64,000 nt of DNA from Candidatus Saccharimonadota bacterium. GTDB lineage: Bacteria; Patescibacteriota; Saccharimonadia; Saccharimonadales; Saccharimonadaceae. Within the stretch, counting starts at the first letter, position 1, and the number at the start of each line of letters is the position of its first letter. Positions 6,831-43,920 of the stretch are shown piece by piece. Made by a program: the position numbers and the translations under genes. The stretch covers positions 97,323 to 161,322 of the forward strand of contig JAFXGL010000008.1 in assembly GCA_017513185.1 (NCBI GenBank), in the 5' to 3' direction. Under the pieces are notes generated by a model. It made no database searches, was not told where the DNA came from, and saw nothing but the letters and a program-made list of their open reading frames with translations.

Positions 6831-7406
6831 TTGTTTTTCTATAGTTATCTTCGCAGCCGTCAGGTCACCACCAGTATATATCGACACTTTATACTCTGCG
6901 CCCGACTCCGACCGCATTATAAACTCTAGGGTATCTATAACGTTATTCACTTCCTCGCTCGCATCCACTCCGCTCACACTGCTAGCAGGGCTATCGGCGC
7001 CTACGTCCGGCCCCTCATCGCCACCGCGCTCCGGCGCCAAAGGCACCTCAATGGCATCCCAGGCCGTATCTGTCGCAGTAGTTGTAAAGTTCAGGCTTCC
7101 TTCTACAAAGGCGAAATAGCTCGAATCCGGCTCTAGCTTGGGCAGCTTAGTAGTTAGCTCGCGATAGGCCAGGGTGTACTGCTCATTAGTCAGCCCACCA
7201 TCCGTCACTAACGCCTGAATGTCGGCGATTTTTGACCCCGATGCGGCATAGTCTAGCAGCTGATCGGATTCATCCACGACTTCTTGCCCTGGGCCCTTAT
7301 CAATCAGTGCAGACAATCCAACACCCAGCAAAAGCAAAAATGCAACAAGTATAGCAAGTATAATAAATATCTTTTTCTTGGTTATGATTGGCTGCATATT
7401 GTCCAT
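6828..7406 (-). CDS. Bitopic membrane protein (N-terminal TM), paralog of the 60198-60821 product
   Basis: TM helix IFIILAILVAFLLLLGVGLSALI. It shares GLTNEQYTLAYRELTTKL with GLTSEQYSKVCAAIESAL in the paralog. Its start overlaps the upstream stop by 1 nt (TAATG on the minus strand). Confidence 0.6.
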   Translation of the reverse strand: MDNMQPIITKKKIFIILAILVAFLLLLGVGLSALIDKGPGQEVVDESDQLLDYAASGSKIADIQALVTDGGLTNEQYTLAYRELTTKLPKLEPDSSYFAFVEGSLNFTTTATDTAWDAIEVPLAPERGGDEGPDVGADSPASSVSGVDASEEVNNVIDTLEFIMRSESGAEYKVSIYTGGDLTAAKITIEKQ

Positions 7407-8989
7407 TACTTCACCTTGAACCCAACATTAGACCTATCTAGCACGGCTTTCGCGGGGAAAATCCATTCTCGATTATTGGCACTGGCCGGGTTTGCAATAA
7501 TTAGCTTATCGTCGAACGTAATGCCGATAATCGACACCCAGTGCCCGCCGCCACTACCGCCATTACCACTTCTACTAAACACGCAGAGGCCGGCAGTTAT
7601 GTTACCAGAGTTCTTGCAGAAACTTTTTTCTCTCTCTGCGTCATCCCTGCGCGCGCCGCCGACGACAATCGCTGCCCCACTCGCTAGTGCCGCGCGTGTA
7701 GCTGACAACTTTTTAGAATAACTGTCACTATAATTACTCCAAATCTCCGTCATGGTCATCTTTGTGTTTGAAATTATCTTGCGAGTGTTGGCTTTGGACG
7801 GATAAGTAAGGTTGCTTTTAGTCCAAGACGCCAACTCTTTAAGAAAATCCGCCGTTTGCGATTGAGTGTAATTATGCACCGCCCCATAAGCATTCGACAC
7901 GGCCACTAACGAACAGCCAGACTCTTGGACGGTCTGCCCATATTTGGTGGTGCTAGGTAGCCATTTGACATTTTTTACCGAGTCGTCCCACTGGCCAATA
8001 GCATTTGACGCGCTACGTTTGCCGGCTGCACTACCACCAGTCGTAGTGGGAGTGGTCGTGGTTCCATCGGTACCAGTATCTATCGTCGGCACCGGCGTGG
8101 GCGTCGGGGACGGCGTCCCACTATCGTCGCTGCCGTCATCACCACTATCACCATCGTCGCCGCTATCGCCGTCATCACTATCGCCGCTAAGACGGCAGTT
8201 AGACACGTCTATTGCGAGGGCGCTCTGGGCCGTCTTGTAACGCCCGGAGAAAGATTTATAAGCTAGCTGATACTGGTCTTTATTGGCGATAAGTTTATTC
8301 ACACTAAACATCAGCGGCGGCTTTTGCTTATTGTAGACGCAAGTACCTTTTTGGATAGACTCTTGCGAACAGCACTCATCCTGCCCCACGCAAGAACACG
8401 AGCCAGGTGCCTCTACATATTTGTAAAAGGCATAAGTTGTCTCTTGTAGAGTGCGACCGTTGAAATTAGCCGGGCTAAAGTATTTGCTATACCAGCCATT
8501 GTACATATTTGTCGACAACTCTTTAATCATAAAAGTCGCCTGCGCCTTTAAGGTCGTGACTTTCAAGCCCATCTCGTCGGCATGGTCCTGGAGCGGCTTC
8601 TCGCGCTTGGAGCCTAGCCACTGGAAAATACCAAAGGCTCGCCATCGCCCGCCGATATAGCGCTCTCTATTACGCACACCGTTAGTATAGAGCCTAAAAT
8701 CATCATCGACAATAGTGCCACCGTTAAGGACTTTTGGCCTGTAGCCGGACTCGTGAGCGATATTGCCCATAATCCCCGCCGCAGCGTTGTCGTCGTAGCC
8801 CGCATCGAGAAGATAGCGCTTCAAAGTGGCGGAATTTGAGCCGCAATCCGCCGTCATCTCTGGCAATTCTGAAGTATCATCCGGGTCGTCACTCGGACAT
8901 TTAATGGTCAGGGCCGCAGCAACCAGCGGCAGAGCTAGTACGCATACTACCATAGCCGCTAATAAACCTACACACCTCGCTTTTTTCAT
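7406..8989 (-). CDS. Secreted two-domain cell-wall hydrolase: lysozyme-like N-domain plus papain-like (C39-like) Cys peptidase C-domain
   Basis: N-terminal signal peptide. GIMGNIAHESG and FGIFQWLG motifs resemble phage-tail-lysozyme-type muramidases. A D/G/S and PT-rich linker follows. The C-domain has QESGCSLVAVSNA (Cys) and GGGHWVSIIGI (His). Confidence 0.65.
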   Translation of the reverse strand: MKKARCVGLLAAMVVCVLALPLVAAALTIKCPSDDPDDTSELPEMTADCGSNSATLKRYLLDAGYDDNAAAGIMGNIAHESGYRPKVLNGGTIVDDDFRLYTNGVRNRERYIGGRWRAFGIFQWLGSKREKPLQDHADEMGLKVTTLKAQATFMIKELSTNMYNGWYSKYFSPANFNGRTLQETTYAFYKYVEAPGSCSCVGQDECCSQESIQKGTCVYNKQKPPLMFSVNKLIANKDQYQLAYKSFSGRYKTAQSALAIDVSNCRLSGDSDDGDSGDDGDSGDDGSDDSGTPSPTPTPVPTIDTGTDGTTTTPTTTGGSAAGKRSASNAIGQWDDSVKNVKWLPSTTKYGQTVQESGCSLVAVSNAYGAVHNYTQSQTADFLKELASWTKSNLTYPSKANTRKIISNTKMTMTEIWSNYSDSYSKKLSATRAALASGAAIVVGGARRDDAEREKSFCKNSGNITAGLCVFSRSGNGGSGGGHWVSIIGITFDDKLIIANPASANNREWIFPAKAVLDRSNVGFKVK

Positions 8990-22857: not shown

Positions 22858-22873
22858 CAAGCTTTAAAAAATG

Positions 22874-22882
22874 TGCTATTAT
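22874..22882 (+). promoter_or_regulatory. Extended -10-like element (TGCTATTAT) 8 nt upstream of the ATG at 22891
   Basis: Read directly from the sequence. Confidence 0.45.
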
Positions 22883-22890
22883 TTTTATAT

Positions 22891-24648
22891 ATGAACAAAG
22901 AAACTATTTATATCGAACCGAGTGACGATATTACGGACATTCTTACGAAGCTCAAAGCGTCCGAGAAAAAAATAGTCGCTCTTGTTCCACCCAAAAAGCC
23001 GACCGTACTTTTGAGCTCGGTCAATATTAAGTTAATTGCTCGCACCGCCAAGGCCGAGAAAAAGGCCGTGGTCGTTATTTCTACCGACGACTCACTGACG
23101 AAGCTCGCCATGGCTGCCAATCTCCCAGTTGCTCCGTCTCTCAAGTCTCGCCCAGTCATGCCCGAAGATGCCGCCAAAGAAGAAGCTAAGCCCGAGCCAG
23201 AAAAGGCCGAAGAAAAAGACGAGGAAGAAGAAAAAGACGCCGGAGAAGAGGAAGAAGAGAAGGAAGACACGGAAGAAGATGAGGATGTAGAAGAAGAAAA
23301 AGAAGATGAGGATGACGACGAGGAGGATGAAGATGCCGAAGAAGACGACGCAGAAGACGATGCAGAGGAAGAAAAGCCCAAAAAAGCCAAGAAAGAAAAG
23401 CCAGCCAAAAAAGAAAAGAAGGAAAAAGAAGAGAAAGAAGAAAAAGAATACAGCAACGCCTTTACGGCCTTTGTCGGCACGCACAAACTTCTTGTTATCG
23501 GCGGCGCCGTCGCGCTCGTCGGCATTGCCGTCTTCCTATTCTGGGCCTTTACCATCGCTCCGCGCGTCGACGTCGCTGTCTCTGTCCGCACCACGTCTGC
23601 CAACTTTTCCGAGAACGTCAGCTTCACTACCAAAGCCGAGAACGAAAAAGTCGACAACGGCACCTTCTTCCTGCACGAAGAAAAGCTAGAAAAAGACCAA
23701 ACCGTCAAATTTACCGCTACCGGCAAAAAAGACATGGGCGACCCTGCCTCTGGCGCTGTCATTGCTTACTATCAAAGCAAAGAAAACTTCACGTTTAGCT
23801 TTGCTGCTGGTTCAAAATTCGTCTATAAAGGTTTTGAATACACTGCTACTGAAGGCGCCGTGCTTGCCTGGGACGGAGAAAACGACATGGGCTGCGAAAA
23901 TGGCAGCTCCATCTCCAAAGGCTGCCTAAAGTCCGTCAAAATCCCCGTGAAAGCCGTCGCCGCAGGTGAAGATTACAACATCTCCGGCCAACAAAGTGGC
24001 TGGTCTTCCAACGATTTCCCCGCCGTCTCCGTCTATAATGCTGAAGATATCGCTGGCGGCACCTCCCGTATCGTCACCGTCGTCCAGCAGTCCGACGTCG
24101 ACCTTGCTCTCGACAAAATGAAGAGCGAAGCCATCGGCGACGCCAAGAACGAGCTCTATGGCAAGCTCTCCGACACCGTTATGCCGATAGATGCCAGCTA
24201 CAAAGTCTCCGCTAGCGACCCCCAGTCTACGCCCGGCGTCGGCGAAGAGGTTAAGGATGGTGTCACTCCGCAAATCTCCACCAAGACCACCTACACCGTC
24301 TACTCAGTAGATCGCGTCCGCATCGAAGAATTCATCAAGGCCAAAGCTAGCATTGAAGAAGGCCGCCGCCTTTACTCTATCGGCGAGCCATTCGTGGAAT
24401 ACTTCGCCGAAGGTAGCGACAGCACCTACAGTGCCAAGCTCAAGACCACCTACAAGGCTGGTCCAGAAATCAGCGAAACCGAAATTCTCGACAAAATCCG
24501 TGGCGAAAAAATCGGCCGCATTGAGCCTATCCTGAAAGATGCTTTCTCTGGAATCTCCAGCGTCAAGACCACCAAGTCTTACTTCTGGGTCAATTCCATC
24601 CCGAGCGACGAGAACAAAGTCAAAATCGAACTAACTGTCGAAGAATAA
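22891..24648 (+). CDS. Hypothetical bitopic membrane protein with a long acidic (E/D/K) tract
   Basis: N-terminal domain, then about 110 aa of E/D/K low complexity, TM helix LLVIGGAVALVGIAVFLFWAFTI, then about 370 aa extracytoplasmic. Confidence 0.6.
   Translation: MNKETIYIEPSDDITDILTKLKASEKKIVALVPPKKPTVLLSSVNIKLIARTAKAEKKAVVVISTDDSLTKLAMAANLPVAPSLKSRPVMPEDAAKEEAKPEPEKAEEKDEEEEKDAGEEEEEKEDTEEDEDVEEEKEDEDDDEEDEDAEEDDAEDDAEEEKPKKAKKEKPAKKEKKEKEEKEEKEYSNAFTAFVGTHKLLVIGGAVALVGIAVFLFWAFTIAPRVDVAVSVRTTSANFSENVSFTTKAENEKVDNGTFFLHEEKLEKDQTVKFTATGKKDMGDPASGAVIAYYQSKENFTFSFAAGSKFVYKGFEYTATEGAVLAWDGENDMGCENGSSISKGCLKSVKIPVKAVAAGEDYNISGQQSGWSSNDFPAVSVYNAEDIAGGTSRIVTVVQQSDVDLALDKMKSEAIGDAKNELYGKLSDTVMPIDASYKVSASDPQSTPGVGEEVKDGVTPQISTKTTYTVYSVDRVRIEEFIKAKASIEEGRRLYSIGEPFVEYFAEGSDSTYSAKLKTTYKAGPEISETEILDKIRGEKIGRIEPILKDAFSGISSVKTTKSYFWVNSIPSDENKVKIELTVEE
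23165..23450 (+). repeat. Low-complexity GAA/GAG/GAC/AAA-rich coding tract (acidic linker)
   Basis: Translates to EDAAKEEAKPEPEKAEEKDEEEEKD...EKEEKEEKEY. Confidence 0.8.
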
Positions 24649-24669: not shown

Positions 24670-26295
24670 ATGAAGTTAATCGCACTGGATGTGGGCGAAA
24701 AAAGAATCGGCGTAGCCAAAGCTGATACTAGCGTCAAAATTGCTGTACCCGCCGGTATGATTCCGGTTGATGGCGGAGAAATTCCGGCCATCTCTCGGCT
24801 CTGCAAAATCCAAAACATCGACGTGATTGTGGTGGGTATGCCGCGCAACCTCCAGGGCCAGCTCACCGCCCAGTCCGACTACGTCAAAAACTTCGTCAAA
24901 AACCTCAACAAAACCCTCGTTCTAGAAAAGCCCAACAATAAAACCATCAAGATTTACTTCCAAGACGAATCTCTCACTTCCGTCCAGGCCAAACAAAATC
25001 TTAGGAATCGCCCGCTCGATAAAAAATCCGGCGACATTGACGCCGAAGCAGCGACGATTATCCTTCAAGATTTTCTCGAAAATCTCGCCCGCCGTGTCGT
25101 CTATAAAAAGCCCGAGCCTAAACCTGCCCCTGCCGCCCCCTCCGCCCCTGCCGAAGTAGAGCTCAAGCCCCGCTTTAAAACCCCAAAGGAGAACTCCGTG
25201 AAAAAATGGTTCATCATCCGCATTCTCATCATCGTTATTGCCGTCCTCGGCCTTGCCTATCTAGGAGCCAGTCTCTGGTACAACTCCTCCATCTCTCCCG
25301 TCGTTGCTGCCGAGCAATGTTCCAGCATCTTTAAGCCGGACGAAGCCGACCCTTGCGCTTCGCAACAGTTCGTAGTGGAGGAAGGCTCCTCCGTCTCCGG
25401 TATCGCCGATGCGCTCAAGCAAGCTGGCCTCATCAAAAGCCCGCTGGCCTTCAAAATCTACGCCAAGATTTCCGGCAAAAGTGGCGACCTCAAGGCTGGC
25501 ACTTACAACCTCGCGCCATCCATGGCCGTCGAAAAAATCTATTCCAAGCTCATTGATGGCAGCAACGATGCCGTCGTCTTCCGCTTTACCGCCCTCCCCG
25601 GCGAGACCCTAAACGACGTCAAAAAACGCCTCGTCTCTGTCGGCTACACGGCCGAAGAAATCGACGCTGCCCTCACCAAAAAATACAACCACCCCGTCCT
25701 CGCGGACAAGCCTGCTGATGCCTCGCTTGAAGGCTACCTCTTTGGCGAAACCTACGAATTTTACCAAACCGACAGTGTTGAGACTATCATTATCCGCATG
25801 CTGGACGAACTTTATTCCGTAGTAGAGAAGAACGGCCTCCGCCAAAAGTTTAACAACATGGGCTACACCCTCCATGAAGGGCTCACCCTTGCTTCTATCG
25901 TCCAAAAAGAGGCCGGCACTGTCAGTAAGGAAGACCAAAAAATAGTCGCTCAGGTCTTTTGGAGCCGCCTCGCCCAAGGTATCGCCCTAGGGAGCGACGT
26001 CACTGCTACTTACGCTGCTAACCAAATCGACCCCGAGCGCAAGACTTACACCGACAACGCCGCTGTTCTCGCCATTGATTCGCCATACAACACTCGCAGA
26101 TATGCCGGTCTCCCTCCTGGGCCTATCTGTAATCCTGGCTCGCTCGTCCTCATTTCCACCGCTAATCCAGCCGACACTTCTTATCTTTATTTCTTGACAG
26201 GAGACGATGGTCTGATGTATTATAGTAACACGGAGGCTGAGCATAACCAGAACGCCCGCGACCATTGCCAAGTCCTCTGTAATACTCAATTATGA
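24670..26295 (+). CDS. Fusion protein: RuvX/YqgF-like nuclease, TM helix, and MltG/YceG endolytic transglycosylase
   Basis: N-terminus has KLIALDVGEKRIGVAKAD, VIVVGMP and DAEAATIILQDFLE (YqgF). TM helix is WFIIRILIIVIAVLGLAYLGASLW. C-terminus has YLFGETYEF, TLASIVQKEAG, SPYNTRRYAGLPPGPICNPG and YLYFL (MltG). Confidence 0.8.
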   Translation: MKLIALDVGEKRIGVAKADTSVKIAVPAGMIPVDGGEIPAISRLCKIQNIDVIVVGMPRNLQGQLTAQSDYVKNFVKNLNKTLVLEKPNNKTIKIYFQDESLTSVQAKQNLRNRPLDKKSGDIDAEAATIILQDFLENLARRVVYKKPEPKPAPAAPSAPAEVELKPRFKTPKENSVKKWFIIRILIIVIAVLGLAYLGASLWYNSSISPVVAAEQCSSIFKPDEADPCASQQFVVEEGSSVSGIADALKQAGLIKSPLAFKIYAKISGKSGDLKAGTYNLAPSMAVEKIYSKLIDGSNDAVVFRFTALPGETLNDVKKRLVSVGYTAEEIDAALTKKYNHPVLADKPADASLEGYLFGETYEFYQTDSVETIIIRMLDELYSVVEKNGLRQKFNNMGYTLHEGLTLASIVQKEAGTVSKEDQKIVAQVFWSRLAQGIALGSDVTATYAANQIDPERKTYTDNAAVLAIDSPYNTRRYAGLPPGPICNPGSLVLISTANPADTSYLYFLTGDDGLMYYSNTEAEHNQNARDHCQVLCNTQL

Positions 26296-28695: not shown

Positions 28696-28724
28696 TTGAC
28701 AAGCATAAGTTTTTTCTTTAAAAT
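28696..28724 (+). promoter_or_regulatory. sigma70-type promoter TTGACA-17nt-TAAAAT for the candidate small RNA
   Basis: TTGACA at 28696-28701 and TAAAAT at 28719-28724. Confidence 0.55.
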
Positions 28725-28730
28725 AAAAAT

Positions 28731-28875
28731 AAGCTGATACGCTTCACGGGGTTCCACTGACTAGCTTAGTGGAGTGTGGAGACTACATTAAAACAAAAAC
28801 AGCGGATTAAAACAAACCAATGTGCCCCAGGGTGGGCGCGCATCAGCGGGAGGCCGGGCAACCGGCCTCCTTTTG
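28731..28875 (+). ncRNA. Candidate structured small RNA or cis-regulatory leader (family not recognised)
   Basis: It is bounded by its own promoter and an intrinsic terminator. A closing stem pairs 28733-28742 with 28838-28847 (9 of 10 bp). An inner CAC-GGGG / CCCC-AGG-GTG pairing and a TTCCAC/GTGGAG hairpin are possible. The 11-nt direct repeat ATTAAAACAAA occurs at 28787 and 28806. There is no credible ORF. Confidence 0.4.
28849..28875 (+). terminator. Rho-independent terminator
   Basis: GGAGGCCGG GCAA CCGGCCTCC followed by TTTTG. Confidence 0.8.
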
Positions 28876-28916
28876 AATTTACGCAAAAATAAACCTTTAA
28901 CATTTCGCCGTGCTTA

Positions 28917-28925
28917 TGCTATACT
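28917..28925 (+). promoter_or_regulatory. Extended -10 (TGCTATACT) 7 nt upstream of the ATG at 28933
   Basis: Read directly from the sequence. Confidence 0.45.
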
Positions 28926-28932
28926 TAAATAA

Positions 28933-31900
28933 ATGGAGCCACAAGTGGAGAAAAAATCACACAAGAAGCTGTTGATTGCTATCATCGCTTTGCTTTTGCT
29001 TGGTGGCGGTGGCTTTGCCGCCTGGTGGTTTTTGCTACGGCAACCCGCTTCGCCTTCTATAGCGCTCACTAACGGCAAAATGTACCCCGAGTTTGCCGCA
29101 GAAACTACCAGCTACACTATCTACACGTCGGCCAATTCGCTCTCCTTCTCCTGTACCGGCGACGGTGCTATCACCGGCTGCGACTCTCCCGTTGCGGTCG
29201 CCACTGGCAACTCCACCCACCAAATCGCCATCGGTGAGCATCGTTACTCCTTCTCTATCACCCGTCTTGATCCTTCCGATACCACGCTCAAAATCAAATC
29301 TGTCCGCGGCAACCCCACCGCCTGGACCACTTCCGCCGAGCTGACCGTTGCCGTAGAAAACTCCGGCTCCGTCAAAGAACTCGAATATTCTTTTGATGGT
29401 GGCAAAACTTGGCGCAGCTCTAACATCGGTACCATCACCAAAAACGGCACTTATTCCATCATCGCTCGCGATTATTTTGGCTTCCTTTCCGATACTAAGA
29501 CCGTCAAAGTCACCAAAGTTGATTCAGAAAAGCCCATCGTCAACATCACCAAAGAGCAAACTAACTCTACTAAAACCGAAGAAAACCAAGCCGTCCTCAC
29601 CGCCGTCATTACAGAGGAAATTTCCGGCATCAAAAGCATCAAATGGAACACTGGTGCCACTACCGAATCTATCACCGTCCACACCGGCGGCACCTACACC
29701 GTCACGGTGACAGACAAAGCCGGCAACATTACCAAAAAATCCACCACCGTTACCTTTGAGTCGCCCAAAGAATCTGACTCTGACCTCCCGGATACCTCCG
29801 GTGGCAACCAAGGCGACAGTAAGCAAGGCGGCAACACTCCTGCTCCGACACCTACTCCTACTCCCACGCCTACCCCCACTCCCACCCCCACTCCGCCAAC
29901 ACCGGTCACCCATACTTTCGTCGCGCAATTTGTCGGCAACGGCGCTACCGCCAGCACCTCCTCGGCTAACTGCGCCACTACCGGCACTTCCTGTACCATC
30001 CACACCGCCAATATCACGCGCGTCGGCTGGGAAATCATCGGCTGGTCCACTAACCAAAACGCCACCACCAGCGAATATCCAGTCAACGCTGACGTCCGCA
30101 TCTCCGGTAATATTCGCCTCTACGCCATCACCAGAAAGACCATCTCCGGCTCCTTTACCCTTCGTGATGAAAACGCCGCTACGCAGTCCGGCGGCTCGAC
30201 TAGCTGCACTCTCTACAATGCAGCCTCGTCTTGCAACATTACCGCCCCCATTCTCACTGCCAAATCTGGCTACACTGTCGCCGGCTGGAATACTTCGCAA
30301 ACCTCCACATCGGGTAGCCACGCTTCCGGCGCCTCTATCTCCATTTCCGGCAACACCACTTTTTATTCGGTGACCTATCTCACCGCTCCGCTCACGGCCA
30401 CCTTTACCATCTCCGACCCAGATGCTGCCACCAAGTCCGGCGGTATCACCAACTGCTTCCTCTATAACGGCGAAGAATCTTGCTCTCTCCGAGCTCCGAC
30501 TTTGACAGCCAAAACCGACTATGCTGCGGACGGCTGGTATGACCCCGAGCATGACGTCTCGCTTGATTCCGGAGAAAGCTTCCTCGTCACCATCGCCACT
30601 TCTAGCCGCACTTATTACGCCGTCACGCGCTCTACACGCATCTATTCCGCCACCTTCAACCTTCAGGATTCCGCTCACCTCACTAAGTCTTCAGAAATCA
30701 CTTCTTGTCTCCCGGAAAATGGCTCCTGCACCATCACCGTCCCCACGCTTACAGCTACGGACGCCGCTTTTGAAGCTTTTGGTTGGTCCACTAGCGCTTC
30801 CGCCACCACCGCCGACGGCCTCGGCGCCACCCTCACCCTCACTTCCAGCAATAACGGCGTCGCTTACTACTCTATCTCTCGCAATAAAACCCCTCTCTCC
30901 ACCAACTTTACCATCAAAGACTCCGCAGCCCTCTCTGCCAGCGGTTCGCTCACGCCAAGCTGTTATCTCTACAACGGCGCTACTTCTTGTACTGTCGCCG
31001 CCCCGTCCCTCTCGGCTAGCAGCGGGTACAACTTTGACGGTTGGAGCCGTACCGACGGCGCCACCTCACCAGATTTTGCGGCTGGCGACTCGGTAGCGCT
31101 CAGCCAAACCACCATTTTCTACTCCGTCTCCCACAACAACACTCCTCGCTCCGCCACTTTCAACATCTCCAATTCTTCTATTTCTCGCTTCTCCGACAAT
31201 ACTACTGCTGCCAAAACTATCAGTTGCTATCTCTACAATGGCTCTTCCTCCTGTAACGTTACCTCCCCCGCCATCAATACCGACGCTAGCTACACTGCGC
31301 TCGGCTGGGCGACTAACCCCTCCGCCACTACTGCCGATTTTACCGCGGGCAGTTCTGTCACCCTCACTGGCGCCAACCAAAACTACTACTCTGTCGTCAC
31401 CAAATCCTTCACCATCACCTTCAAATCTTCCGATCCGTCGCACCTCACCTTCGCAGGCGGCGCTACCACCACTACGCAAGTTTGCGACCTCAACAACGCC
31501 TCTAGCTGCGCCGTTAACTTCCCGGCCGTCACCACATCGGATGGTCGTGAGCTTATCGGCTGGTCCAGCACAGAAAACTCCACCACCGCTGAACATGCCG
31601 CCACCGACCACCCCTCCGTCTCATCGGCTATCACTTACTACACTGTCTCCAAAAAGACCGTTACTCTTTCGTTCTCGCTCGTAGATGCCGTTCACTTCTC
31701 GCTTGCTAGCCCCACTGCTTCTTGCACTTTCTACAACTCCGCCACGGGCTGCTCGCTCTCTGCTCCGGCTGTTACTGCCGCTGCTAATTATTCATTACTT
31801 GGCTGGTCTACCACTTCTGGCGCCACCACCTACTCTTGGAACGGCTCCGCCCGCACCGTCTCGGCCGACGCTAGCTACTTCTCTGTCTCTCGCTATGCTA

Positions 31901-33261
31901 TTCCATTCCGGCTTTACTATGTCGTCGACTCGTCGGATACCAATAAAATCTCCACTCCCCCCACCTACGACGAATGCTATCTCATGAACGGCGCCGAGAA
32001 CTGTGCCATCACCCTCGCCTCGGTCACGCCTACTTCCGCCAGTTACTACTTCGCCGGTTGGGGCGCCAGTGCCACCTCCTACGACGAATACTTCCCAGCT
32101 GGCATCAACCTCTACGGCATACCAGGGAATTACGGCATCTACGCCATTGTTGGCGCTGTCAGCCCCATCACTTTCGTCAACGGCGCCAGCGTTACTGGCT
32201 CTAACGCTTCCATTCTAGACGGCAACAACATCTCCGCACAGAGCATCAGTGCCACCAGCGGCAGCTGCATCAGTTACGACGGCACCAACTGTTACATCAA
32301 AAAGATGCCGTATCTATACGCTCCAGGTAGCGACATCTTCGGCTTTGGTAAGACCCAGCTAGGTGGCACCGACAGCCTATTATCCTTCACTGGCGCGCAA
32401 TCCGTCTCCGCCGGCAGCACACTCTACTCCCGCGTCTGGAACACCATCTCTGCCAAGTATTACAACCACGCCAAGACGTTCCTCATTAGCTTTACCGGTA
32501 GCGGTAGCAGCTCTAGCGACTGGAGCGAAGGCGGTAATCCGTCCACCGGCGACGAATATTATGCCATAGAATTCGAGAGCGGTATCGACGAAGACGTCGG
32601 CACGGCCTATGCCAACTTTGTCCTAGAAATCGCCAGCAAGCTACCTATCATCAGCGAATTCCACGGCAAAACCCGTTTCATGACCAACAACTCGTTTGAC
32701 CCGCTCTTTAACCCCAACGGGACTGCTAACGGCGTTACGCTCGGCGTTACGCACGGCTACGGTCAGTTTGCCCCGGTCGCCATTCGCCTTCAGGCCAACT
32801 CCGAAGGTAAAGTCACCAGTGTCTCCGAACTTTCCAAGTACTCGCTCGTTCACGAACTTGGCCATGCCACGGAATTTCTAGTCCTAGACCATCTCGGCGG
32901 CAGATGGCCTGTAGTCTTCAACGATCTCCGCGTACGCTGCTATAACCTCCGCCAGTCCGGCACGCCTTGCCTCAGCGACTACGCCTATAATAACGTCGAG
33001 TATAGCACCGCCCAAGGCCAATTTGTGCCTACCGCCGGTCACACTGAAGATGACTCCGACGTCGACGGCTTTGAGTTCTTCGCCGAGCTCTTCGCTGCAT
33101 GGTATAATGAGCAATATACCGGCATGGATATTGCCTCTGTCTTTGGCAACTATGGCACCAAGCACAATTCTGAGTTTGAAGCCGACACCGATAAAGCCAT
33201 GACAGACCTATTCAAAGTCATCGCAAACGACTATAACTTGGCAGCTGCCGATATGGAGTAA
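28933..33261 (+). CDS. Giant (1442 aa) membrane-anchored surface protein: Ig-like domains, PT linker, about 10 Cys-pair repeats, C-terminal M34/lethal-factor-like Zn-metalloprotease domain
   Basis: N-terminal anchor LLIAIIALLLLGGGGFAAWWFLL. (TP)n linker. Repeats of about 85 aa follow the pattern F..D..C.LYN..SC....P.LT...Y...GW.T....YYSV. HELGH lies at 32851-32865 and EFFAELF at 33073-33093. Confidence 0.75.
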   Translation: MEPQVEKKSHKKLLIAIIALLLLGGGGFAAWWFLLRQPASPSIALTNGKMYPEFAAETTSYTIYTSANSLSFSCTGDGAITGCDSPVAVATGNSTHQIAIGEHRYSFSITRLDPSDTTLKIKSVRGNPTAWTTSAELTVAVENSGSVKELEYSFDGGKTWRSSNIGTITKNGTYSIIARDYFGFLSDTKTVKVTKVDSEKPIVNITKEQTNSTKTEENQAVLTAVITEEISGIKSIKWNTGATTESITVHTGGTYTVTVTDKAGNITKKSTTVTFESPKESDSDLPDTSGGNQGDSKQGGNTPAPTPTPTPTPTPTPTPTPPTPVTHTFVAQFVGNGATASTSSANCATTGTSCTIHTANITRVGWEIIGWSTNQNATTSEYPVNADVRISGNIRLYAITRKTISGSFTLRDENAATQSGGSTSCTLYNAASSCNITAPILTAKSGYTVAGWNTSQTSTSGSHASGASISISGNTTFYSVTYLTAPLTATFTISDPDAATKSGGITNCFLYNGEESCSLRAPTLTAKTDYAADGWYDPEHDVSLDSGESFLVTIATSSRTYYAVTRSTRIYSATFNLQDSAHLTKSSEITSCLPENGSCTITVPTLTATDAAFEAFGWSTSASATTADGLGATLTLTSSNNGVAYYSISRNKTPLSTNFTIKDSAALSASGSLTPSCYLYNGATSCTVAAPSLSASSGYNFDGWSRTDGATSPDFAAGDSVALSQTTIFYSVSHNNTPRSATFNISNSSISRFSDNTTAAKTISCYLYNGSSSCNVTSPAINTDASYTALGWATNPSATTADFTAGSSVTLTGANQNYYSVVTKSFTITFKSSDPSHLTFAGGATTTTQVCDLNNASSCAVNFPAVTTSDGRELIGWSSTENSTTAEHAATDHPSVSSAITYYTVSKKTVTLSFSLVDAVHFSLASPTASCTFYNSATGCSLSAPAVTAAANYSLLGWSTTSGATTYSWNGSARTVSADASYFSVSRYAIPFRLYYVVDSSDTNKISTPPTYDECYLMNGAENCAITLASVTPTSASYYFAGWGASATSYDEYFPAGINLYGIPGNYGIYAIVGAVSPITFVNGASVTGSNASILDGNNISAQSISATSGSCISYDGTNCYIKKMPYLYAPGSDIFGFGKTQLGGTDSLLSFTGAQSVSAGSTLYSRVWNTISAKYYNHAKTFLISFTGSGSSSSDWSEGGNPSTGDEYYAIEFESGIDEDVGTAYANFVLEIASKLPIISEFHGKTRFMTNNSFDPLFNPNGTANGVTLGVTHGYGQFAPVAIRLQANSEGKVTSVSELSKYSLVHELGHATEFLVLDHLGGRWPVVFNDLRVRCYNLRQSGTPCLSDYAYNNVEYSTAQGQFVPTAGHTEDDSDVDGFEFFAELFAAWYNEQYTGMDIASVFGNYGTKHNSEFEADTDKAMTDLFKVIANDYNLAAADME
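29900..32460 (+). repeat. About 10 tandem divergent coding repeats (about 83-88 aa each) inside the giant gene
   Basis: Each repeat carries a conserved Cys...Cys pair, a GW and a YYSV/FYSV motif. Repeat boundaries were read from the translation. The unit resembles the Listeria-Bacteroides (Flg_new) repeat architecture. Confidence 0.7.
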
Positions 33262-33265
33262 ACAT

Positions 33266-33655
33266 ATGGATATCAAACCCAAAACCAATTATCTCATCAT
33301 CCTTGGCGCCATCGTGGTAGGGCTTATCACCTTTGCGGTTTTTATGAGCGAACGCAATCGCCCCAAAGATACTTCTGCCTCCACTGCTCCGACCGTCGGT
33401 CTCCTAGAAACTGTTGGCAATAAACTCATTGTCCACGCCAAGTCTAATGCCCCCAAAGGCACCGAAGAAACCTTCGTCTACTGCCTGACTCGCCAGAAGT
33501 CCTCCGATGCTTGTGCCTGGGACAACTCCGACGAATTTGACCTCCCCGAACCGGGTGATTACTACGTCTACGTCAAATCCCTCACCACAGAAGAAATTTC
33601 GGAGCCCAAACTCTTTACCTACGAGCCTATCGACAGCTCCAAAGTCAAAATGTAG
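33266..33655 (+). CDS. Small bitopic membrane protein, tightly linked to the giant gene
   Basis: TM helix [19 protein letters not shown]. The ATG lies 4 nt after the giant gene stop. Confidence 0.5.
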
Positions 33656-33665
33656 AGGCGTCACC

Positions 33666-35669
33666 ATGAACTTCCAGCTCGTCTCCAAATACCAACCCAC
33701 TGGCGACCAACCTGCCGCCATTAAACAGCTTACCAAAGGTCTCAAAGAGGGTGTTAAAGAACAGACTCTGCTCGGCGTCACTGGCTCTGGTAAAACTTTT
33801 ACCATGGCCAACCTCATTCAAAACTTCGGCAAACCCACGCTCGTCCTCGCACACAATAAAACTCTCGCCGCCCAGCTCTATTCCGAGTTCCGCGAATTTT
33901 TCCCCAAAAACGAAGTGCATTATTTTGTCTCCTACTTTGACTATTATCAGCCCGAGGCCTACATAGCCTCCACTGATACTTACATAGAAAAAGATTCCGC
34001 TATCAACGAAGAAATCGACCGTTTGCGTCACGGCGCCACCGAGGCCTTGCTTACGCGGGATGATGTGATTATCGTTGCTTCTGTTTCCTGCATCTACGGC
34101 ATCGGCTCGCCCATGAGCTACCAAGCCATGTCGCTCCCACTTTGGAAAAAGTCCACCGGCTGGGTGATGGAAGGCGACGTGCCTGTCCCGAGCCAGCTCG
34201 ACTTTATCCGCGAGCTCGTTCGTATTCAATATCATCGCAACGACCTCGCCTTTGAACGTGGTAACTTCCGTGTTATGGGCGACACTGTCGACCTTTATCC
34301 GGCCTCCGGCGAGTGGGCCTATCGTTTTGAATTTGGCTTTGACAATCTCGAATCCGTCAAAATCATCGACCCCCTCACTGGTGATACTCGAGAAAAACCC
34401 GACCATGTCCATATCTTCCCCAATACTCACTACGCTACGCCCGATTCCGACCTTCAGCGCGCCCTCGGTCTCATCGAGGCCGAATACAAAGAGCGTCTCG
34501 CTTTCTTTGAGAAGCATCAAAAATACCTAGAAGCTCAGCGCCTTACTCAACGCATCAAATACGACCTAGAAATGCTCAAGGAAACCGGCTTCGTCAAAGG
34601 TATAGAAAACTATTCTCGCCACCTCGAAGGTCGCAAAGCTGGCGAGCCGCCATATACTCTCCTTGATTTTTTCCCGAAAGATTTTCTACTCCTCGTCGAC
34701 GAATCTCACATGACCCTCCCGCAAGTTCGCGGCATGTATAATGGCGATCACGCCCGCAAAATGGCCCTCGTCGACTACGGCTTCCGTTTACCCAGCGCGC
34801 TCGACAATCGCCCGCTCACCTTTGGCGAATTTTATCGCCACATCTCCCACGCCGTCTACGTCTCCGCCACTCCGGGCGACTACGAACTATCTAACTCCCC
34901 CAAGCCAGCCGAGCAAGTCATCCGCCCCACCGGCCTGCTCGACCCGGAGATTGAAGTTCGTCCTTCCGAAGGACAAATTGACAATCTCATGGAAGAAATC
35001 GACCAGCGCATCGCCAAAAACCAGCGTGTCCTCGTCACCACCCTCACCAAGCGCATGGCTGAAGATTTATCTGACCATCTCAAAGAACGCGGCGTCAAAA
35101 CCGCCTATATCCACAGCGACATCGACACCCTGGAACGCGGCGACATCCTGCGCGACCTCCGCGCCGGCGTTTACGACGTGCTTGTTGGCATCAACCTCCT
35201 GCGTGAAGGTCTCGACCTACCCGAAGTCTCGCTCGTCGCCATCCTCGACGCCGACAAAGAAGGCTTCCTCCGCAGCGAATCTGCTCTCATTCAAACCATC
35301 GGCCGTGCCGCCCGTCACGTGGAAGGCAAAGTTATTATGTATGCCGACTTTATCACTGAGTCCATGGAAAAAGCCATATCAGAGACCGCCCGCCGCCGCG
35401 AACTCCAGACCGCTTACAATAAAAAACACAAAATCACGCCTAAAGGCATCAAGAAAGACATCTCCGCCGGCCTTCGCGCCATCATTCCCGAGAAAGAAAA
35501 GGAAAGTAAGCTTAACATTAAGAAGATTCCAAAAGAAGAGCTCCCGAGCCTCGTCAAACAACTAGAGTCAGAAATGAAACTCGCCGCTGCCAACCTCGAA
35601 TTCGAGCGCGCCGCCCTCCTCCGCGACCAAATTTCAGAAATCCAAACCACCCTCCACCCGCAAAAATAA
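33666..35669 (+). CDS. uvrB: Excinuclease ABC subunit B
   Basis: [19 protein letters not shown], Walker [13 protein letters not shown], and a C-terminal UVR motif ([12 protein letters not shown]). The start is set at 33666, not the track start at 33507. Confidence 0.93.
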
Positions 35670-42144: not shown

Positions 42145-43920
42145 ATGGAGCTTAAACACCACTATTTTCGTAGTATCAATTTAAAATTCTTGGCGATAGC
42201 CCTCACTTTACTACTTTCAAACACTCTCTGCGTTTACAAAGCTAGTAGTATCACCGACGAACAAAGGTCTTATCTCAACTGCTCGGACTTTATGTTTGTC
42301 TTTGCTCGCGGCTCCGGCGCCGAACTCAACAGCGACCGTGACTTTAAGCCCTTCAAGGCCGCCGTCGACGAAGTCTTTGGTAGCTCCGACTACTCCTACA
42401 GCTTTTACGAACTTGGCAGTACCGCCTGGAGCGGTCACTCGTACCCCGCACCGGGCATCGGTATCTCCACTTGGAAACGCTTCACTACCTCCATCGGCGC
42501 TCTCCTCTCCGGCGGGGAAATGAACGAATATGGTGACTCGGTCTATTCCGGCACTGTCGAAGCCAAAACTTTCATTTGGCAAATGCGTAGTGTCTGCCCC
42601 AACACCAAAATTGTCCTAGCGGGTTTCAGCCAAGGCGCCCAAGTCGTTTCTAGCGCCTTGCAAATTATCGACCCTAGTTGGATTTATGCCGCTCTCACCT
42701 TTGGTGACCCCAAACTCTACCTTCCAGAAGGGAAGATGAACTGGTTTACTCGTTCCACCGCTGCCTGTCGTAACGAAAATCTCTCCGAATACCGCGCCTT
42801 TGTTCCCGATTGCTATGCTTACCAGGGTATCCTTGGCGGTTATAATCCTTACCAACCCAGCGGCTACGGTGGCAAGCTCAAGGCTTACTGCCAGTGGCAC
42901 GACGTCATTTGCAGCGCCTACATCGACCTCGATAATCTCGCCTATGGTCACGCCTCCTATGCCGAGCAGGGTACCTACAAGCGCGGTGTTCAAGATGTCT
43001 TTAACATGATTGAACCCTCCACCTACGTCCGCCCATCTCAGGACGTCGCCATCCTCTTTGACGTTACTGGCTCCATGCAGCCGCTCCTCGCTCAGTTCCA
43101 ACACGAAGCTATCGCTACGGCCAAAAAGACCCTATCAAAAGGCGGCAAAGTCGCTCTCTACACCTACGGTGACCTCGCAGAGGTCAAGCCGGTCCAGCTC
43201 TGCAATTTTGATACCTGCACTATAGATAATGTCGAAACCTACATCAAAAACCTCACTGTCGACGGCGGTGGCGACTTGCCCGAATCGCTCCTCTCCGCAT
43301 CGTACACTTTGATGCGTGAACTCAAATGGGATATTGGCGCCAATAAATCGCTCGTCGTTCTGACCGATGCCGAATACCACAACCCCGACCGCGACGGTAT
43401 CACACTCGACCAAGTCGTGGAACTTTCCAAATCCATCGACCCGGTCAACTTCTACATTTTGACCGACCCTGCCCACGCTAGCGGCTACCAAGAACTCGCT
43501 ACTCGCACCGACGGCGGTGTCTACACTTCCGACGTCGCTTCGGCTTTTGGCGACCTTGAAGCAGAAATCCTCTCTCGCGACCCCGGCGCCATCTACACCT
43601 CCACTGACCTCCCCGCCCCTACTTCGGCAACCATAACGAACTTGCAAGTCACCAAACTCTCCGACACTGTAGCCGAAGTCTCATTTGATACCGACGGAGT
43701 CATGACCTTCGTCGCGCTAAACGACTACGCTGCCGGCTACACCGAAGAAAAGACCTTCAAGATAGAAGATTTACAAGGCGAGGCCACGGTCTGTCTCTCG
43801 CCCGTCTCCAGTACCGGCTACCGCGGCGACCCAACCTGCGCCAAAATAGAAAAAACTACTGGTCGCGGCGCTGTCGAAATTACTATTCCCAAGGCCCCAA
43901 ACACTGGCAAATCTAGATAA
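42145..43920 (+). CDS. Secreted cutinase-like serine esterase fused to a vWA domain, ending in an IPKAPNTGKSR tag
   Basis: N-terminal signal peptide. Cutinase-type FARGSGAE, nucleophile elbow GFSQGAQV, FGDP and C..HDVIC....GHASY. vWA MIDAS-like DVTGSM and GGGDLPES. No hydrophobic segment follows PNTG. Confidence 0.7.
   Translation: MELKHHYFRSINLKFLAIALTLLLSNTLCVYKASSITDEQRSYLNCSDFMFVFARGSGAELNSDRDFKPFKAAVDEVFGSSDYSYSFYELGSTAWSGHSYPAPGIGISTWKRFTTSIGALLSGGEMNEYGDSVYSGTVEAKTFIWQMRSVCPNTKIVLAGFSQGAQVVSSALQIIDPSWIYAALTFGDPKLYLPEGKMNWFTRSTAACRNENLSEYRAFVPDCYAYQGILGGYNPYQPSGYGGKLKAYCQWHDVICSAYIDLDNLAYGHASYAEQGTYKRGVQDVFNMIEPSTYVRPSQDVAILFDVTGSMQPLLAQFQHEAIATAKKTLSKGGKVALYTYGDLAEVKPVQLCNFDTCTIDNVETYIKNLTVDGGGDLPESLLSASYTLMRELKWDIGANKSLVVLTDAEYHNPDRDGITLDQVVELSKSIDPVNFYILTDPAHASGYQELATRTDGGVYTSDVASAFGDLEAEILSRDPGAIYTSTDLPAPTSATITNLQVTKLSDTVAEVSFDTDGVMTFVALNDYAAGYTEEKTFKIEDLQGEATVCLSPVSSTGYRGDPTCAKIEKTTGRGAVEITIPKAPNTGKSR

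What the first reader, a model, noticed from the sequence alone, without database searches (positions are those of the whole stretch)
28933..33261. 1442-aa anchored surface protein ending in an anthrax-lethal-factor-like (M34) metalloprotease, preceded by about 10 Cys-pair repeats
The C-terminal region has HELGH (32851-32865) and, about 70 residues later, EFFAELF (33073-33093). This matches the HExxH...EFFAEAF zinc-ligand arrangement I recall for the M34/ATLF family (anthrax LF and the Clostridioides Pro-Pro endopeptidase). Upstream are Ig-like modules, a (TP)n linker and about 10 repeats of roughly 85 aa. Each repeat has a conserved Cys pair, a GW and a YYSV, resembling Listeria-Bacteroides (Flg_new) repeats but with an added likely disulfide. 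This would hold a protease at the end of a long stalk anchored by an N-terminal TM helix. It could be an adhesin that cleaves host-surface proteins or releases the cell's own adhesins (inference). A small TM protein (33266) is tightly coupled downstream.
Basis: partly seen in the sequence, partly recalled or inferred. Interest (0 to 1): 0.65.

Follow-up and report, generated by a model that had tools for sequence, protein, structure and literature searches.

The report
Stalk-mounted lethal-factor-like protease of Saccharibacteria
A ruminant-gut Saccharibacteria genome encodes a real 1442-residue membrane-anchored surface protein whose long repeat stalk ends in a very divergent zinc protease related to anthrax lethal factor; it is always paired with a small membrane protein, and some close relatives lack the pair altogether.

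Summary
ORF 28933-33261 (1442 aa) has an N-terminal TM helix, three Ig-like modules, a (TP)n linker, nine clear and one degenerate ~85-aa Cys-pair Flg_new-type repeats, and a C-terminal domain with HELGH (aa 1307) and EFFAELF (aa 1381).

On its own the C-domain hits nothing in Pfam or PDB. An exhaustive search found about 15 relatives. A profile built from them hits only M34 structures: anthrax LF at E=6e-7 and PPEP-1 at 1.5e-4. It aligns HExxH, the catalytic Tyr (Y1350) and the Glu ligand (E1381). An AlphaFold model (pLDDT 83) has a zincin layout, and LF is the top Foldseek hit, but weakly (TM 0.40). No member reaches the Pfam ATLF cut-off. The window clade carries a 24-residue insertion between Tyr and Glu. 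I call it a divergent M34-like sister family, not a curated member.

The organism is a bovine/sheep-gut Candidatus Saccharibacteria. The gene and a co-oriented 129-aa TM partner form a cassette between a conserved small-RNA-like element and uvrB. The cassette is present in six loci, absent in two syntenic loci and replaced in one. The protease tip evolves faster than the anchor but is under purifying selection. Its substrate and role remain inference.

The parts
28897..28925 (+). Promoter-like site TTAACA-17-(TG)TATACT. It ends 7 nt before the ATG, so the mRNA may be leaderless or nearly so.
   Evidence: 10 of 12 matches, TG extension; sequence. Consensus match only.
28933..33261 (+). Gene for the 1442-aa surface protein.
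   Evidence: Independent contigs identical over 28811-33700. dN/dS 0.08-0.13 against the L001 orthologue.
28966..29037 (+). N-terminal hydrophobic helix (aa 12-35, KLLIAIIALLLLGGGGFAAWWFLL) after a Lys-rich N-terminus. Inferred to be an uncleaved signal anchor with the N-terminus inside the cell.
   Evidence: Sequence. Conserved in orthologues without an AxA-type cleavage motif. Topology is inferred.
29050..29760 (+). Three membrane-proximal beta-sandwich / Ig-like modules (aa 40-114 with Cys74/Cys83, aa 115-198, aa 199-276). This is the most conserved part of the protein.
   Evidence: Sub-threshold Pfam/NCBIfam Ig-type hits (Big_7, Big_13, CHB_HEX_C, OmpL47-type). The profile of this region retrieves SprB/Ig-like proteins. 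80-88% identical to P0004.
29761..29907 (+). Low-complexity linker with a (TP)n run (aa 303-324). Its length varies between strains by in-frame 6-nt units.
   Evidence: Insertions ACGCCT or GCGCCT after 29865 in runs X14, X18 and X28.
29908..32412 (+). Stalk of ten ~85-aa Flg_new-type repeats, each with a C-x6-8-C pair. Nine have GW and YYSV; the tenth (about aa 1101-1172) is degenerate.
   Evidence: Pfam Flg_new E=4.4e-14. Flg_new / Flg_new_2 on single repeats. Repeat table and HMM.
32467..33258 (+). C-terminal M34-like (ATLF-like) zincin domain, aa ~1179-1442.
   Evidence: Family profile against PDB: LF 5.8e-7, PPEP-1 1.5e-4. AlphaFold model pLDDT 83, pTM 0.87. LF is the top Foldseek hit.
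32851..32865 (+). HELGH: two zinc-binding His and the catalytic Glu, on the active-site helix.
   Evidence: Invariant in 16/16 members. Lies in helix 140-162 of the model. Aligned to LF HEFGH 686-690.
32938..32970 (+). Cys1336 and Cys1346 (RCYNLRQSGTPC), a Cys pair specific to the window clade. The rest of the family has a C-terminal YLC...C pair instead.
   Evidence: Alignment. A disulfide is inferred.
32980..32982 (+). Tyr1350 (in LSDYAY), aligned to the catalytic Tyr of M34 enzymes (LF Y728).
   Evidence: HMMER alignment. Present in at least 90% of family members.
32998..33069 (+). Clade-specific insertion between the Tyr and the Glu ligand. Alignment A3 has 24 extra columns here, about aa 1356-1379 (the placement of the gap is approximate; the segment between the motifs is NNVEYSTAQGQFVPTAGHTEDDSDVDG). 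It is predicted as a beta-hairpin plus an acidic loop.
   Evidence: Alignment. Model strands 196-199 and 204-207.
33073..33093 (+). EFFAELF. E1381 is aligned to the third zinc ligand of M34 enzymes (LF E735).
   Evidence: invariant. Lies at the start of helix 221-237 in the model.
33266..33655 (+). Co-oriented 129-aa partner: an N-terminal TM helix plus a ~90-aa ectodomain with two invariant Cys. It starts 4 nt after the big gene's stop codon and ends 10 nt before uvrB (ATG at 33666).
   Evidence: Conserved downstream of the big gene in all six loci, with overlapping stop and start codons in L004, L005 and L006.

Best explanation
This is a real, selectively maintained gene of a ruminant-gut Candidatus Saccharibacteria. 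It encodes a type-II membrane-anchored surface protein with three parts. The base is a conserved set of three Ig-like modules. The stalk is a flexible (TP)n hinge followed by ten disulfide-type Flg_new repeats, tens of nanometres long if extended. The tip is a catalytically competent zinc endopeptidase that is a distant homologue of the M34 family (anthrax lethal factor, Pro-Pro endopeptidases). Zinc would be held by His1307, His1311 and Glu1381. Glu1308 would act as the general base and Tyr1350 would stabilise the transition state. The enzyme is held away from its own membrane, so it most likely cuts proteins outside the cell: on the surface of the bacterium that this episymbiont attaches to, or in the surrounding matrix. 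A co-transcribed small membrane protein acts with it as a partner (anchor, chaperone or inhibitor). Shown here: the gene, its architecture, homology of the zinc-binding core, conservation of the catalytic residues, purifying selection, the conserved partner gene, and presence/absence of the cassette between strains. Inferred: membrane topology, disulfides, catalytic activity, the substrate and the partner's role.
For: ORF and motifs. Identical independent assemblies. Purifying selection: dN/dS 0.10 for the protease domain and 0.08 for the N-terminus. Robust link to relatives: the A1 profile against 1.84 billion proteins gives P0005-P0009 at E=5.5e-15 to 5.6e-8. Full-length collinearity with P0004 and P0007-P0009. 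M34 link: family profile against PDB gives LF 5.8e-7 and PPEP-1 1.5e-4, with nothing but M34 down to E~0.1. Five of 12 members show individual sub-threshold ATLF hits, best 1.6e-5. Most distant members keep the canonical Tyr-x6-Glu spacing. H, E, H and E are invariant in 16/16 members. The model (pLDDT 83) has a zincin secondary-structure layout, and LF fills the top four Foldseek hits with probability up to 0.92. Phage zincins annotated 'M34' or 'lethal factor' appear among the BFVD hits. Taxon and habitat. The partner gene is conserved in six loci. The cassette is absent or replaced in syntenic loci, as expected for an accessory host-interaction factor. PPEPs provide a precedent for extracellular, sometimes wall-anchored, M34 enzymes that cut surface adhesins (PMC8610288, PMC12828418).
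Against: The window domain alone gives no Pfam or PDB sequence hit. No relative reaches the ATLF gathering score. The sequence match to M34 covers only ~65 residues around the zinc site. All Foldseek E-values are above 0.001, with TM 0.34-0.40 and rmsd ~7 A, and PPEP structures are not in the top 50. A 24-residue insertion separates Tyr1350 from Glu1381, unlike every characterised M34 enzyme. There is no unambiguous RNA or protein evidence and no biochemical data for any family member. The host organism and the substrate are unknown.
Confidence: 0.6

Rival explanations
1. Contact-dependent effector with an immunity partner, following the logic of polymorphic toxins. The stalk delivers the fast-evolving protease tip to the target bacterium. 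The co-translated 129-aa membrane protein is the cognate inhibitor that protects the producer's own surface.
For: The layout is a conserved N-terminus, a rapidly diverging C-terminal enzymatic tip and a tightly coupled small downstream gene. Identity to P0004 falls from 80-88% at the N-terminus to 39-52% at the tip. The partner diverges in step with the tip: 71, 48, 53, 26 and 37% identity, against 77, 49-53, 44-45, 26-28 and 26-27% for the tip. It has the highest dN/dS in the locus, 0.18. The cassette is strain-variable at a fixed site. Zincin toxin domains are known in polymorphic toxin systems (my own knowledge: Zhang, Aravind et al. 2012).
Against: All orthologues keep the same tip family, whereas polymorphic toxins swap unrelated tips. 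There is no known pre-toxin or trafficking domain and no orphan tip/immunity pairs. The partner has no similarity to any known inhibitor. Small proteins often evolve fast anyway. No complex prediction could be run.
Confidence: 0.15
2. PPEP-like release switch. The protease cuts the cell's own adhesins, or its own Pro-rich (TP)n hinge, to detach the episymbiont from its host cell.
For: The characterised M34 relatives PPEP-1 and PPEP-2 release the producer's own adhesins at Pro-Pro sites (PMC8610288). The protein carries a Pro-rich hinge containing one Pro-Pro (aa 303-324).
Against: The profile matches LF better than PPEP. PPEP structures are absent from the top fold hits. The N-terminal subdomain that carries the PPEP S-loop and diverting loop does not align. 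The Pro-Pro in the hinge is not conserved in P0004. No neighbouring gene with repeated cleavage motifs was seen.
Confidence: 0.1
3. Nutritional protease. It degrades proteins in rumen fluid or on the host bacterium to supply peptides to an amino-acid-auxotrophic Saccharibacterium, with no specific target.
For: Saccharibacteria lack most biosynthetic pathways (PMC10633639). The broader family occurs in rumen/gut Clostridia next to dockerin proteins, which suggests extracellular degradative assemblies.
Against: An accessory gene that is absent from close relatives fits a core nutritional role poorly. A 1100-residue stalk is costly for a bulk protease. Fast tip evolution suggests a specific, co-evolving target.
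Confidence: 0.1
4. A non-catalytic adhesin tip: a zincin fold retained only as a binding module.
For: The domain is very divergent and carries an unusual insertion next to the active site.
Against: HExxH and the Glu are invariant in 16/16 members and the Tyr is present in at least 90%, across Saccharibacteria and Clostridia. dN/dS is 0.10.
Confidence: 0.05

Closest known systems
Anthrax lethal factor catalytic domain (MEROPS M34; Pfam ATLF PF07737)
   Same: HExxH on the active-site helix. A Tyr and an EFFAEAF-type Glu ligand lie on the following helices and align residue for residue (LF H686/E687/H690, Y728, E735 to H1307/E1308/H1311, Y1350, E1381). LF is the best sequence-profile hit and the best fold hit.
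   Different: Only the ~65-residue zinc core is detectable by sequence. Foldseek TM is 0.40. A 24-residue insertion lies between Tyr and Glu, and the Pfam cut-off is not reached. LF is a secreted multi-domain toxin that enters animal cells through protective antigen. This protein is an N-terminally anchored stalk protein of an episymbiotic bacterium, with no PA-binding domain.
Pro-Pro endopeptidases PPEP-1/Zmp1, PPEP-2 and PPEP-3, including wall-anchored PPEP homologues (PMC8610288, PMC12828418)
   Same: Small extracellular M34 zincins of Gram-positive bacteria, some tethered to the cell surface by added domains. They share the N-terminal-domain / active-site-helix / C-terminal-domain layout, with Tyr and Glu on helices of the C-terminal domain. 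Profile E=1.5e-4.
   Different: PPEPs are reported only in Clostridiales and Bacillales, are ~200 aa long, and have a Tyr-x6-Glu spacing. Their specificity elements (S-loop Trp/Tyr, diverting loop) could not be aligned here. Nothing here indicates Pro-Pro specificity.
Listeria-Bacteroides / InlB B-repeat (Pfam Flg_new PF09479, Flg_new_2 PF18998)
   Same: The stalk repeats match above the Pfam cut-off and share the GY-x-F-x-GW and terminal YA/YS strand pattern.
   Different: Each repeat carries an extra C-x6-8-C hairpin where the Flg_new consensus has none. The repeats are ~85 aa long against ~65-70 aa.
Polymorphic toxin / contact-dependent inhibition systems (CdiA-CT/CdiI, Rhs and LXG, including zincin 'Tox-MPTase' tips). 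This comparison rests on my own knowledge.
   Same: A long repetitive surface filament, a rapidly diverging enzymatic C-terminus, a tightly coupled small downstream gene, and strain-variable presence.
   Different: The same tip family occurs in all orthologues. There are no recognised trafficking or pre-toxin domains. The partner is a membrane protein of unknown fold, and immunity function is untested.

Membership tests
MEROPS M34 / Pfam ATLF (PF07737) | HExxH motif on the active-site helix | tested here: met
   HELGH at aa 1307-1311. Invariant in 16/16 members. Lies inside model helix 140-162. Aligned to LF HEFGH.
MEROPS M34 / Pfam ATLF (PF07737) | Third zinc ligand is the first Glu of an EFFAEAF-type motif on a C-terminal helix | tested here: inconclusive
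   The motif EFFAELF is present and invariant, aligns to LF E735, and lies at the start of model helix 221-237. Distances in the model could not be measured because no coordinates were accessible.
MEROPS M34 / Pfam ATLF (PF07737) | Catalytic Tyr seven residues before the Glu ligand (LF Y728/E735; PPEP-1 Y178/E185; PPEP-3 Y190/E197, PMC12828418) | tested here: not met
   The aligned Tyr1350 is present, but it lies 31 residues before E1381 because of a 24-residue insertion. The distant family members P0007, P0008, P0011, P0012 and P0013 do keep Y-x6-E.
MEROPS M34 / Pfam ATLF (PF07737) | Score at or above the Pfam gathering threshold (27.4 bits) | tested here: not met
   The window domain gives no hit even at E<=10. 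The best relative, P0005, scores 25.2 bits at E=1.6e-5; others score 15-17 bits.
MEROPS M34 / Pfam ATLF (PF07737) | Significant profile-level sequence similarity to solved M34 enzymes | tested here: met
   16-sequence profile: LF 5.8e-7, PPEP-1 1.5e-4, ATLF-like 9g0j 1.1e-3, and no non-M34 entry below E~0.5. This depends on intermediate sequences; the 3-sequence clade profile finds nothing.
MEROPS M34 / Pfam ATLF (PF07737) | Fold similarity to the LF domain IV / PPEP fold | tested here: inconclusive
   LF is the top four Foldseek hits (probability 0.63-0.92), but with E 0.024-0.065, TMq 0.34-0.40 and rmsd ~7-8 A. PPEP is not in the top 50.
Pro-Pro endopeptidase (PPEP) subfamily | S-loop aromatic residue (Trp103/Tyr113) and diverting loop that impose Pro-Pro specificity (PMC12828418) | not testable with these tools
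   The N-terminal subdomain does not align by sequence, and no coordinates were available for superposition.
Pro-Pro endopeptidase (PPEP) subfamily | A substrate adhesin with repeated Pro-Pro cleavage sites encoded nearby | tested here: not met
   The neighbours are Obg, a LysM-CHAP protein, the 129-aa TM protein and UvrB. Only one non-conserved Pro-Pro exists, in the protein's own hinge.
Flg_new / Listeria-Bacteroides repeat (PF09479) | Pfam gathering score; tandem ~70-aa repeats with the GW motif | tested here: met
   52.8 bits against a cut-off of 27. Nine repeats carry GW, and single repeats hit Flg_new / Flg_new_2.
Polymorphic toxin system | Unrelated C-terminal toxin domains exchanged on a conserved N-terminal scaffold, each with a cognate downstream immunity gene | tested here: not met
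   All six loci keep the same tip family and the same partner family. Only faster divergence of the tip is seen. Immunity function is not testable here.

The most novel reading that the evidence does not exclude
The cassette is a contact-dependent device of an episymbiont. A ~40-nm stalk presents a fast-evolving lethal-factor-like protease to the surface of the host bacterium, to breach or remodel its envelope proteins. The co-translated membrane-anchored 129-aa partner is the protease's dedicated inhibitor (immunity) on the producer's own surface. The pair is gained, lost or replaced by other surface proteins at a hot spot between a conserved small RNA and uvrB, which tunes host range.
Probability: 0.15. 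Interest if true: 0.75.

Novelty: new variant of a known kind. Interest (0 to 1): 0.48.

Why it matters
How Saccharibacteria and other Patescibacteria recognise, attach to and exploit their host bacteria is largely unknown beyond type IV pili, a type IV secretion system and a few adhesins (PMC10633639). This finding offers a concrete, testable candidate: a strain-variable, stalk-displayed protease with a dedicated partner. It extends the M34 / lethal-factor-like proteases beyond Firmicutes toxins and PPEPs into the candidate phyla radiation. It also defines an uncurated sister family, about 15 sequences among 15 billion proteins, shared by rumen Saccharibacteria and Clostridia. If the function is ordinary (a surface protease), the value is mainly in annotation: the family is currently invisible to Pfam and NCBIfam.

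Tried and rejected
1. phmmer of the C-domain against PDB found nothing. Pfam and NCBIfam on the C-domain at E<=10 found nothing. So single-sequence methods cannot classify it.

2. The word-indexed homology search found only 2 relatives, then 6. The exhaustive search was needed. P0010 from that search is a low-complexity repeat artefact and was dropped.

3. The first AlphaFold model, built from 3 sequences, had pLDDT 52 and was not used.

4. The clade-only profile (A1) against PDB found nothing. The M34 link is therefore transitive.

5. Is the small partner a copy of the big protein's Ig modules? Local hhalign gave only a 23-column motif match to module 2 (P=0.002, probability 13%), which is inconclusive. 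A partner profile against PDB and Pfam found nothing.

6. I looked for more orthologues in 39 metagenome loci that share the upstream small-RNA element. None carries the protease, stalk or partner. This instead showed that the cassette is accessory.

7. There are no paralogues of the stalk, tip or partner elsewhere in the window.

8. Transcription: the two 'RNA?' runs give only a few low-depth contigs and carry a 'GENOMIC' label, so I treat them as no evidence.

9. A literature search found no described Saccharibacteria M34-like protease.

10. The frameshifts in L001 and L002 were considered as possible pseudogenes. L003, which has the same sequence as L002, is intact, so they are most likely assembly errors in a repetitive gene.

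Full report
OBSERVATION

The ORF 28933-33261 (+) is the longest in its neighbourhood and translates without interruption to 1442 aa. HELGH lies at aa 1307-1311 (nt 32851-32865).

Ten C-x6-8-C pairs recur every 78-97 residues between aa 347 and 1120. Nine of these repeats also carry GW and a terminal YYSV-like strand. The tenth is degenerate. Pfam recognises the repeats as Flg_new (E=4.4e-14, 52.8 bits against a cut-off of 27). Single repeats also touch Flg_new_2, the divergent InlB B-repeat.

The N-terminus is Lys-rich and is followed by a 24-residue hydrophobic segment (aa 12-35). No conserved signal-peptidase motif appears in the orthologues, so I infer an uncleaved signal anchor. Residues 40-276 form three modules. 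Their Pfam/NCBIfam hits are sub-threshold and of the Ig type, and a profile of this region retrieves SprB/Ig-like proteins. A (TP)n hinge follows (aa 303-324).

The gene is not an assembly artefact. The exact sequence is present in at least 17 gut-metagenome runs from several studies (bovine and sheep). One independent contig covers 28811-33700 with no difference. A ~98%-identical strain variant shows no frame-breaking change: its two single-base indels, 4 nt apart, offset each other and the hinge insertion is in frame.

WHAT THE C-TERMINAL DOMAIN IS

On its own the domain is invisible to curated resources. It has no Pfam or NCBIfam hit at E<=10 and no PDB hit by phmmer. The word-indexed search of 5.8 billion proteins gave two relatives.

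An exhaustive HMMER search of 1.84 billion cluster representatives, using the three-sequence profile, gave eleven real relatives. Four are close. Five (P0005-P0009) score E=5.5e-15 to 5.6e-8. P0011 and P0012 score ~1e-5. A further profile search added four more.

P0004, P0007, P0008 and P0009 are full-length and collinear with the window protein: same TM segment, same three modules, hinge, Cys repeats and tip. Their tips are therefore orthologous to the window's.

In the 16-sequence alignment, HExxH, the Glu of EF[FLIVW][AS][ETD] and a downstream Tyr are invariant. The Tyr of (L)S(D)YA(Y/F) is present in at least 90% of members.

A profile of this alignment, searched against all PDB sequences, finds only M34 enzymes: anthrax lethal factor (E=5.8e-7), PPEP-1/Zmp1 (1.5e-4) and an 'ATLF-like domain' protein (1.1e-3). 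The first non-M34 entry appears at E~0.6 (the 12-sequence version is). The HMMER alignment pairs the window family's HExxH with LF HEFGH. It pairs the conserved Tyr with the Tyr in LF 'LTSYGRTNEAEFFAEAF', and the first Glu of EFFAE with the first Glu of that LF motif. From the literature these are Y728 and E735. The equivalents are Y178/E185 in PPEP-1 and Y190/E197 in PPEP-3 (PMC12828418).

Five of twelve members show individual ATLF hits, but all fall below the gathering score (best 25.2 against 27.4 bits).

An AlphaFold model built on the 16-sequence alignment is confident (mean pLDDT 83, pTM 0.87). Its layout is that described for PPEPs:
- a mixed alpha/beta N-terminal subdomain;
- a long helix carrying HELGH (model residues 140-162);
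- a helical C-terminal subdomain in which Y1350 sits in a short helix and E1381 opens the next long helix.

Foldseek against the PDB ranks lethal factor first to fourth (probability up to 0.92). The match is weak, with E 0.024-0.065 and TM 0.34-0.40, and PPEP structures do not appear. Against predicted viral structures, the hits are phage zincins, including ones annotated 'endopeptidase family M34' and 'lethal factor'. I could not read the model's coordinates, so the ligand geometry is unverified.

My conclusion is that the domain is a zincin whose zinc-binding core is homologous to M34. It belongs to an uncurated, very small sister family rather than to ATLF as curated.

HOW THE WINDOW CLADE DIFFERS

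Most distant members keep the canonical Tyr-x6-Glu spacing. The window clade (window, P0001-P0004, L003) has 24 extra residues between Tyr1350 and Glu1381. These are predicted as a beta-hairpin followed by an acidic loop (HTEDDSDVDG). The clade also has its own Cys pair (C1336/C1346) in place of the C-terminal YLC...C pair of the other members. It sits next to the active site, where it could shape specificity (inference).

ORGANISM, CONTEXT AND POPULATION GENETICS

The nearest genome hit is a Candidatus Saccharibacteria MAG (L003). N-terminal orthologues are annotated Candidatus Saccharibacteria. The habitat is the bovine/sheep gut.

The gene order is RuvX-YceG fusion, LysM-CHAP, Obg, a conserved RNA-like element, the giant gene, the 129-aa TM gene, uvrB, then gatCAB. 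This order is shared by the window, L001 and L006. The small TM gene follows the giant gene in all six loci. It overlaps the giant gene's stop codon in three of them, and it has two invariant Cys. In the window it starts 4 nt after the stop and ends 10 nt before the uvrB ATG at 33666, so the three genes are probably co-transcribed (inference).

The pair is accessory.
- In two loci with the same synteny (L043: Obg 78%, UvrB 87% identical; L020: Obg 81% identical), the RNA element is followed directly by uvrB.
- In L027 the same slot holds a different secreted protein. It has a signal peptide, a segment that by eye matches the Flg_new repeat pattern, and two copies of a domain that by eye resembles the Fibrobacter-type paralogous domain. 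These assignments were read from the translation and were not scanned against profile libraries.

Conservation falls from the anchor to the tip. Identity to P0004 is 80-88% over aa 1-400 and 39-52% over aa 1121-1440. The same gradient appears with P0007-P0009. Against the closer L001 orthologue, dN is about twice as high in the tip (0.146) as in Obg (0.071). dN/dS stays near 0.1, although dS is close to saturation. The tip is therefore functional but fast-evolving. The partner diverges about as fast as the tip (dN/dS 0.18).

The wider family also occurs on contigs of spore-forming Firmicutes, next to yabP/yqfD, yunB and dockerin genes. There it has one or two Cys repeats and an N-terminal TM segment or a weak, sub-threshold dockerin-like match. 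This fits the Firmicutes distribution of M34 and suggests gene transfer within the gut (inference).

MECHANISM

The best-supported reading is a membrane-anchored, stalk-displayed zinc endopeptidase acting outside the cell. The partner protein sits in the same membrane. The substrate is unknown.

Three features point to a specific, co-evolving extracellular target, most plausibly on the bacterial host of this episymbiont: the accessory distribution, the fast-evolving tip and the long stalk. The rival readings cannot be excluded with these tools and are scored separately: a polymorphic-toxin-like effector with an immunity partner, a PPEP-like self-release switch, a bulk nutritional protease, and a non-catalytic adhesin.

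COMPARISON AND NOVELTY

Extracellular and wall-anchored M34 enzymes are known in Clostridiales and Bacillales (PMC8610288). Four things are new here: the phylum; the giant N-terminally anchored Cys-repeat stalk; the dedicated TM partner; and the divergence, which is below curated thresholds and includes an insertion between two catalytic residues. I found no description of such a protein in the Saccharibacteria literature I searched. I rate it a new variant of a known kind, of moderate interest.

Noticed in passing
window 28696-28880 (core 28731-28847; terminator 28848-28871): A candidate conserved small RNA lies between obg and the giant gene. It has a promoter-like TTGACA-17-TAAAAT site, a ~118-nt core and a hairpin terminator. 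The fold z-score is -5.5. No Rfam family matches (best: SraB at 21.5 bits against a gathering score of 130). The core is ~97% identical between the window, L001 and L006, although the flanking proteins are only 25-60% identical. A 31-mer from it occurs in 39 metagenome contigs, usually beside obg in varying orientation, with variable terminator stems that keep their pairing. The sequences are too conserved to show covariation. In assemblies its depth is 5-10 times that of the flanks, and contigs break there.
   Followed up: partly
window 28897-28935: The -10-like TATACT ends 7 nt before the ATG of the giant gene, and no Shine-Dalgarno sequence is present. The mRNA may therefore be leaderless. 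The L006 orthologue has a ~25-nt leader containing GAGG instead.
   Followed up: no
window 29839-29904 (insertion site after 29865): The (TP)n hinge varies in length between strains through in-frame 6-nt insertions (ACGCCT or GCGCCT), seen in three metagenome runs.
   Followed up: partly
L043, L020, L027 (slot equivalent to window 28872-33665): The site between the RNA element and uvrB is a variable slot. It is empty in L043 and L020. In L027 it holds a 745-aa secreted protein with, by eye, one Flg_new-like repeat and two Fibrobacter-type paralogous domains (not scanned against profile libraries). In L020 the first 64 residues of UvrB are 98% identical to the window although Obg is only 81% identical, which hints at recombination near this site.
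   Followed up: partly
L001 8190-8201; L002 2838-2960: The orthologous genes are split by apparent frameshifts in two ENA metagenome scaffolds. L003 carries the same sequence as L002 and is intact, so these are probably assembly errors in a repetitive gene rather than pseudogenes.
   Followed up: partly
window 24670-26295: A single ORF fuses a RuvX (Holliday-junction resolvase-like) domain to a YceG/MltG-like domain. The same fusion is called in L001 and L006.
   Followed up: no
window 33507-35669: The mechanical ORF for uvrB starts at 33507 and overlaps the small TM gene. The UvrB homology begins at residue 55, and the real start is the ATG at 33666 ([16 protein letters not shown]), 10 nt after the stop codon of the small gene.
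   Followed up: yes
window 60821-63829; 43941-46619; 42145-43920; 7406-8989 (-); 22873-24648: There are other large genes of possible surface or host-interaction interest. Two ORFs (1002 aa and 892 aa) have no Pfam hit. One protein combines cutinase and VWA domains. One 527-aa protein has a phage-tail-lysozyme domain. One 591-aa protein shows only weak, mutually overlapping, sub-threshold Pfam hits over residues ~100-226.
   Followed up: no
L009 5001-7579; L010 4237-6815: In a Clostridia-type contig, the family member P0012 has a weak dockerin match and two Cys repeats. It is followed, with a 4-nt overlap, by a 187-aa dockerin protein. This suggests a cellulosome-associated version of the protease.
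   Followed up: no
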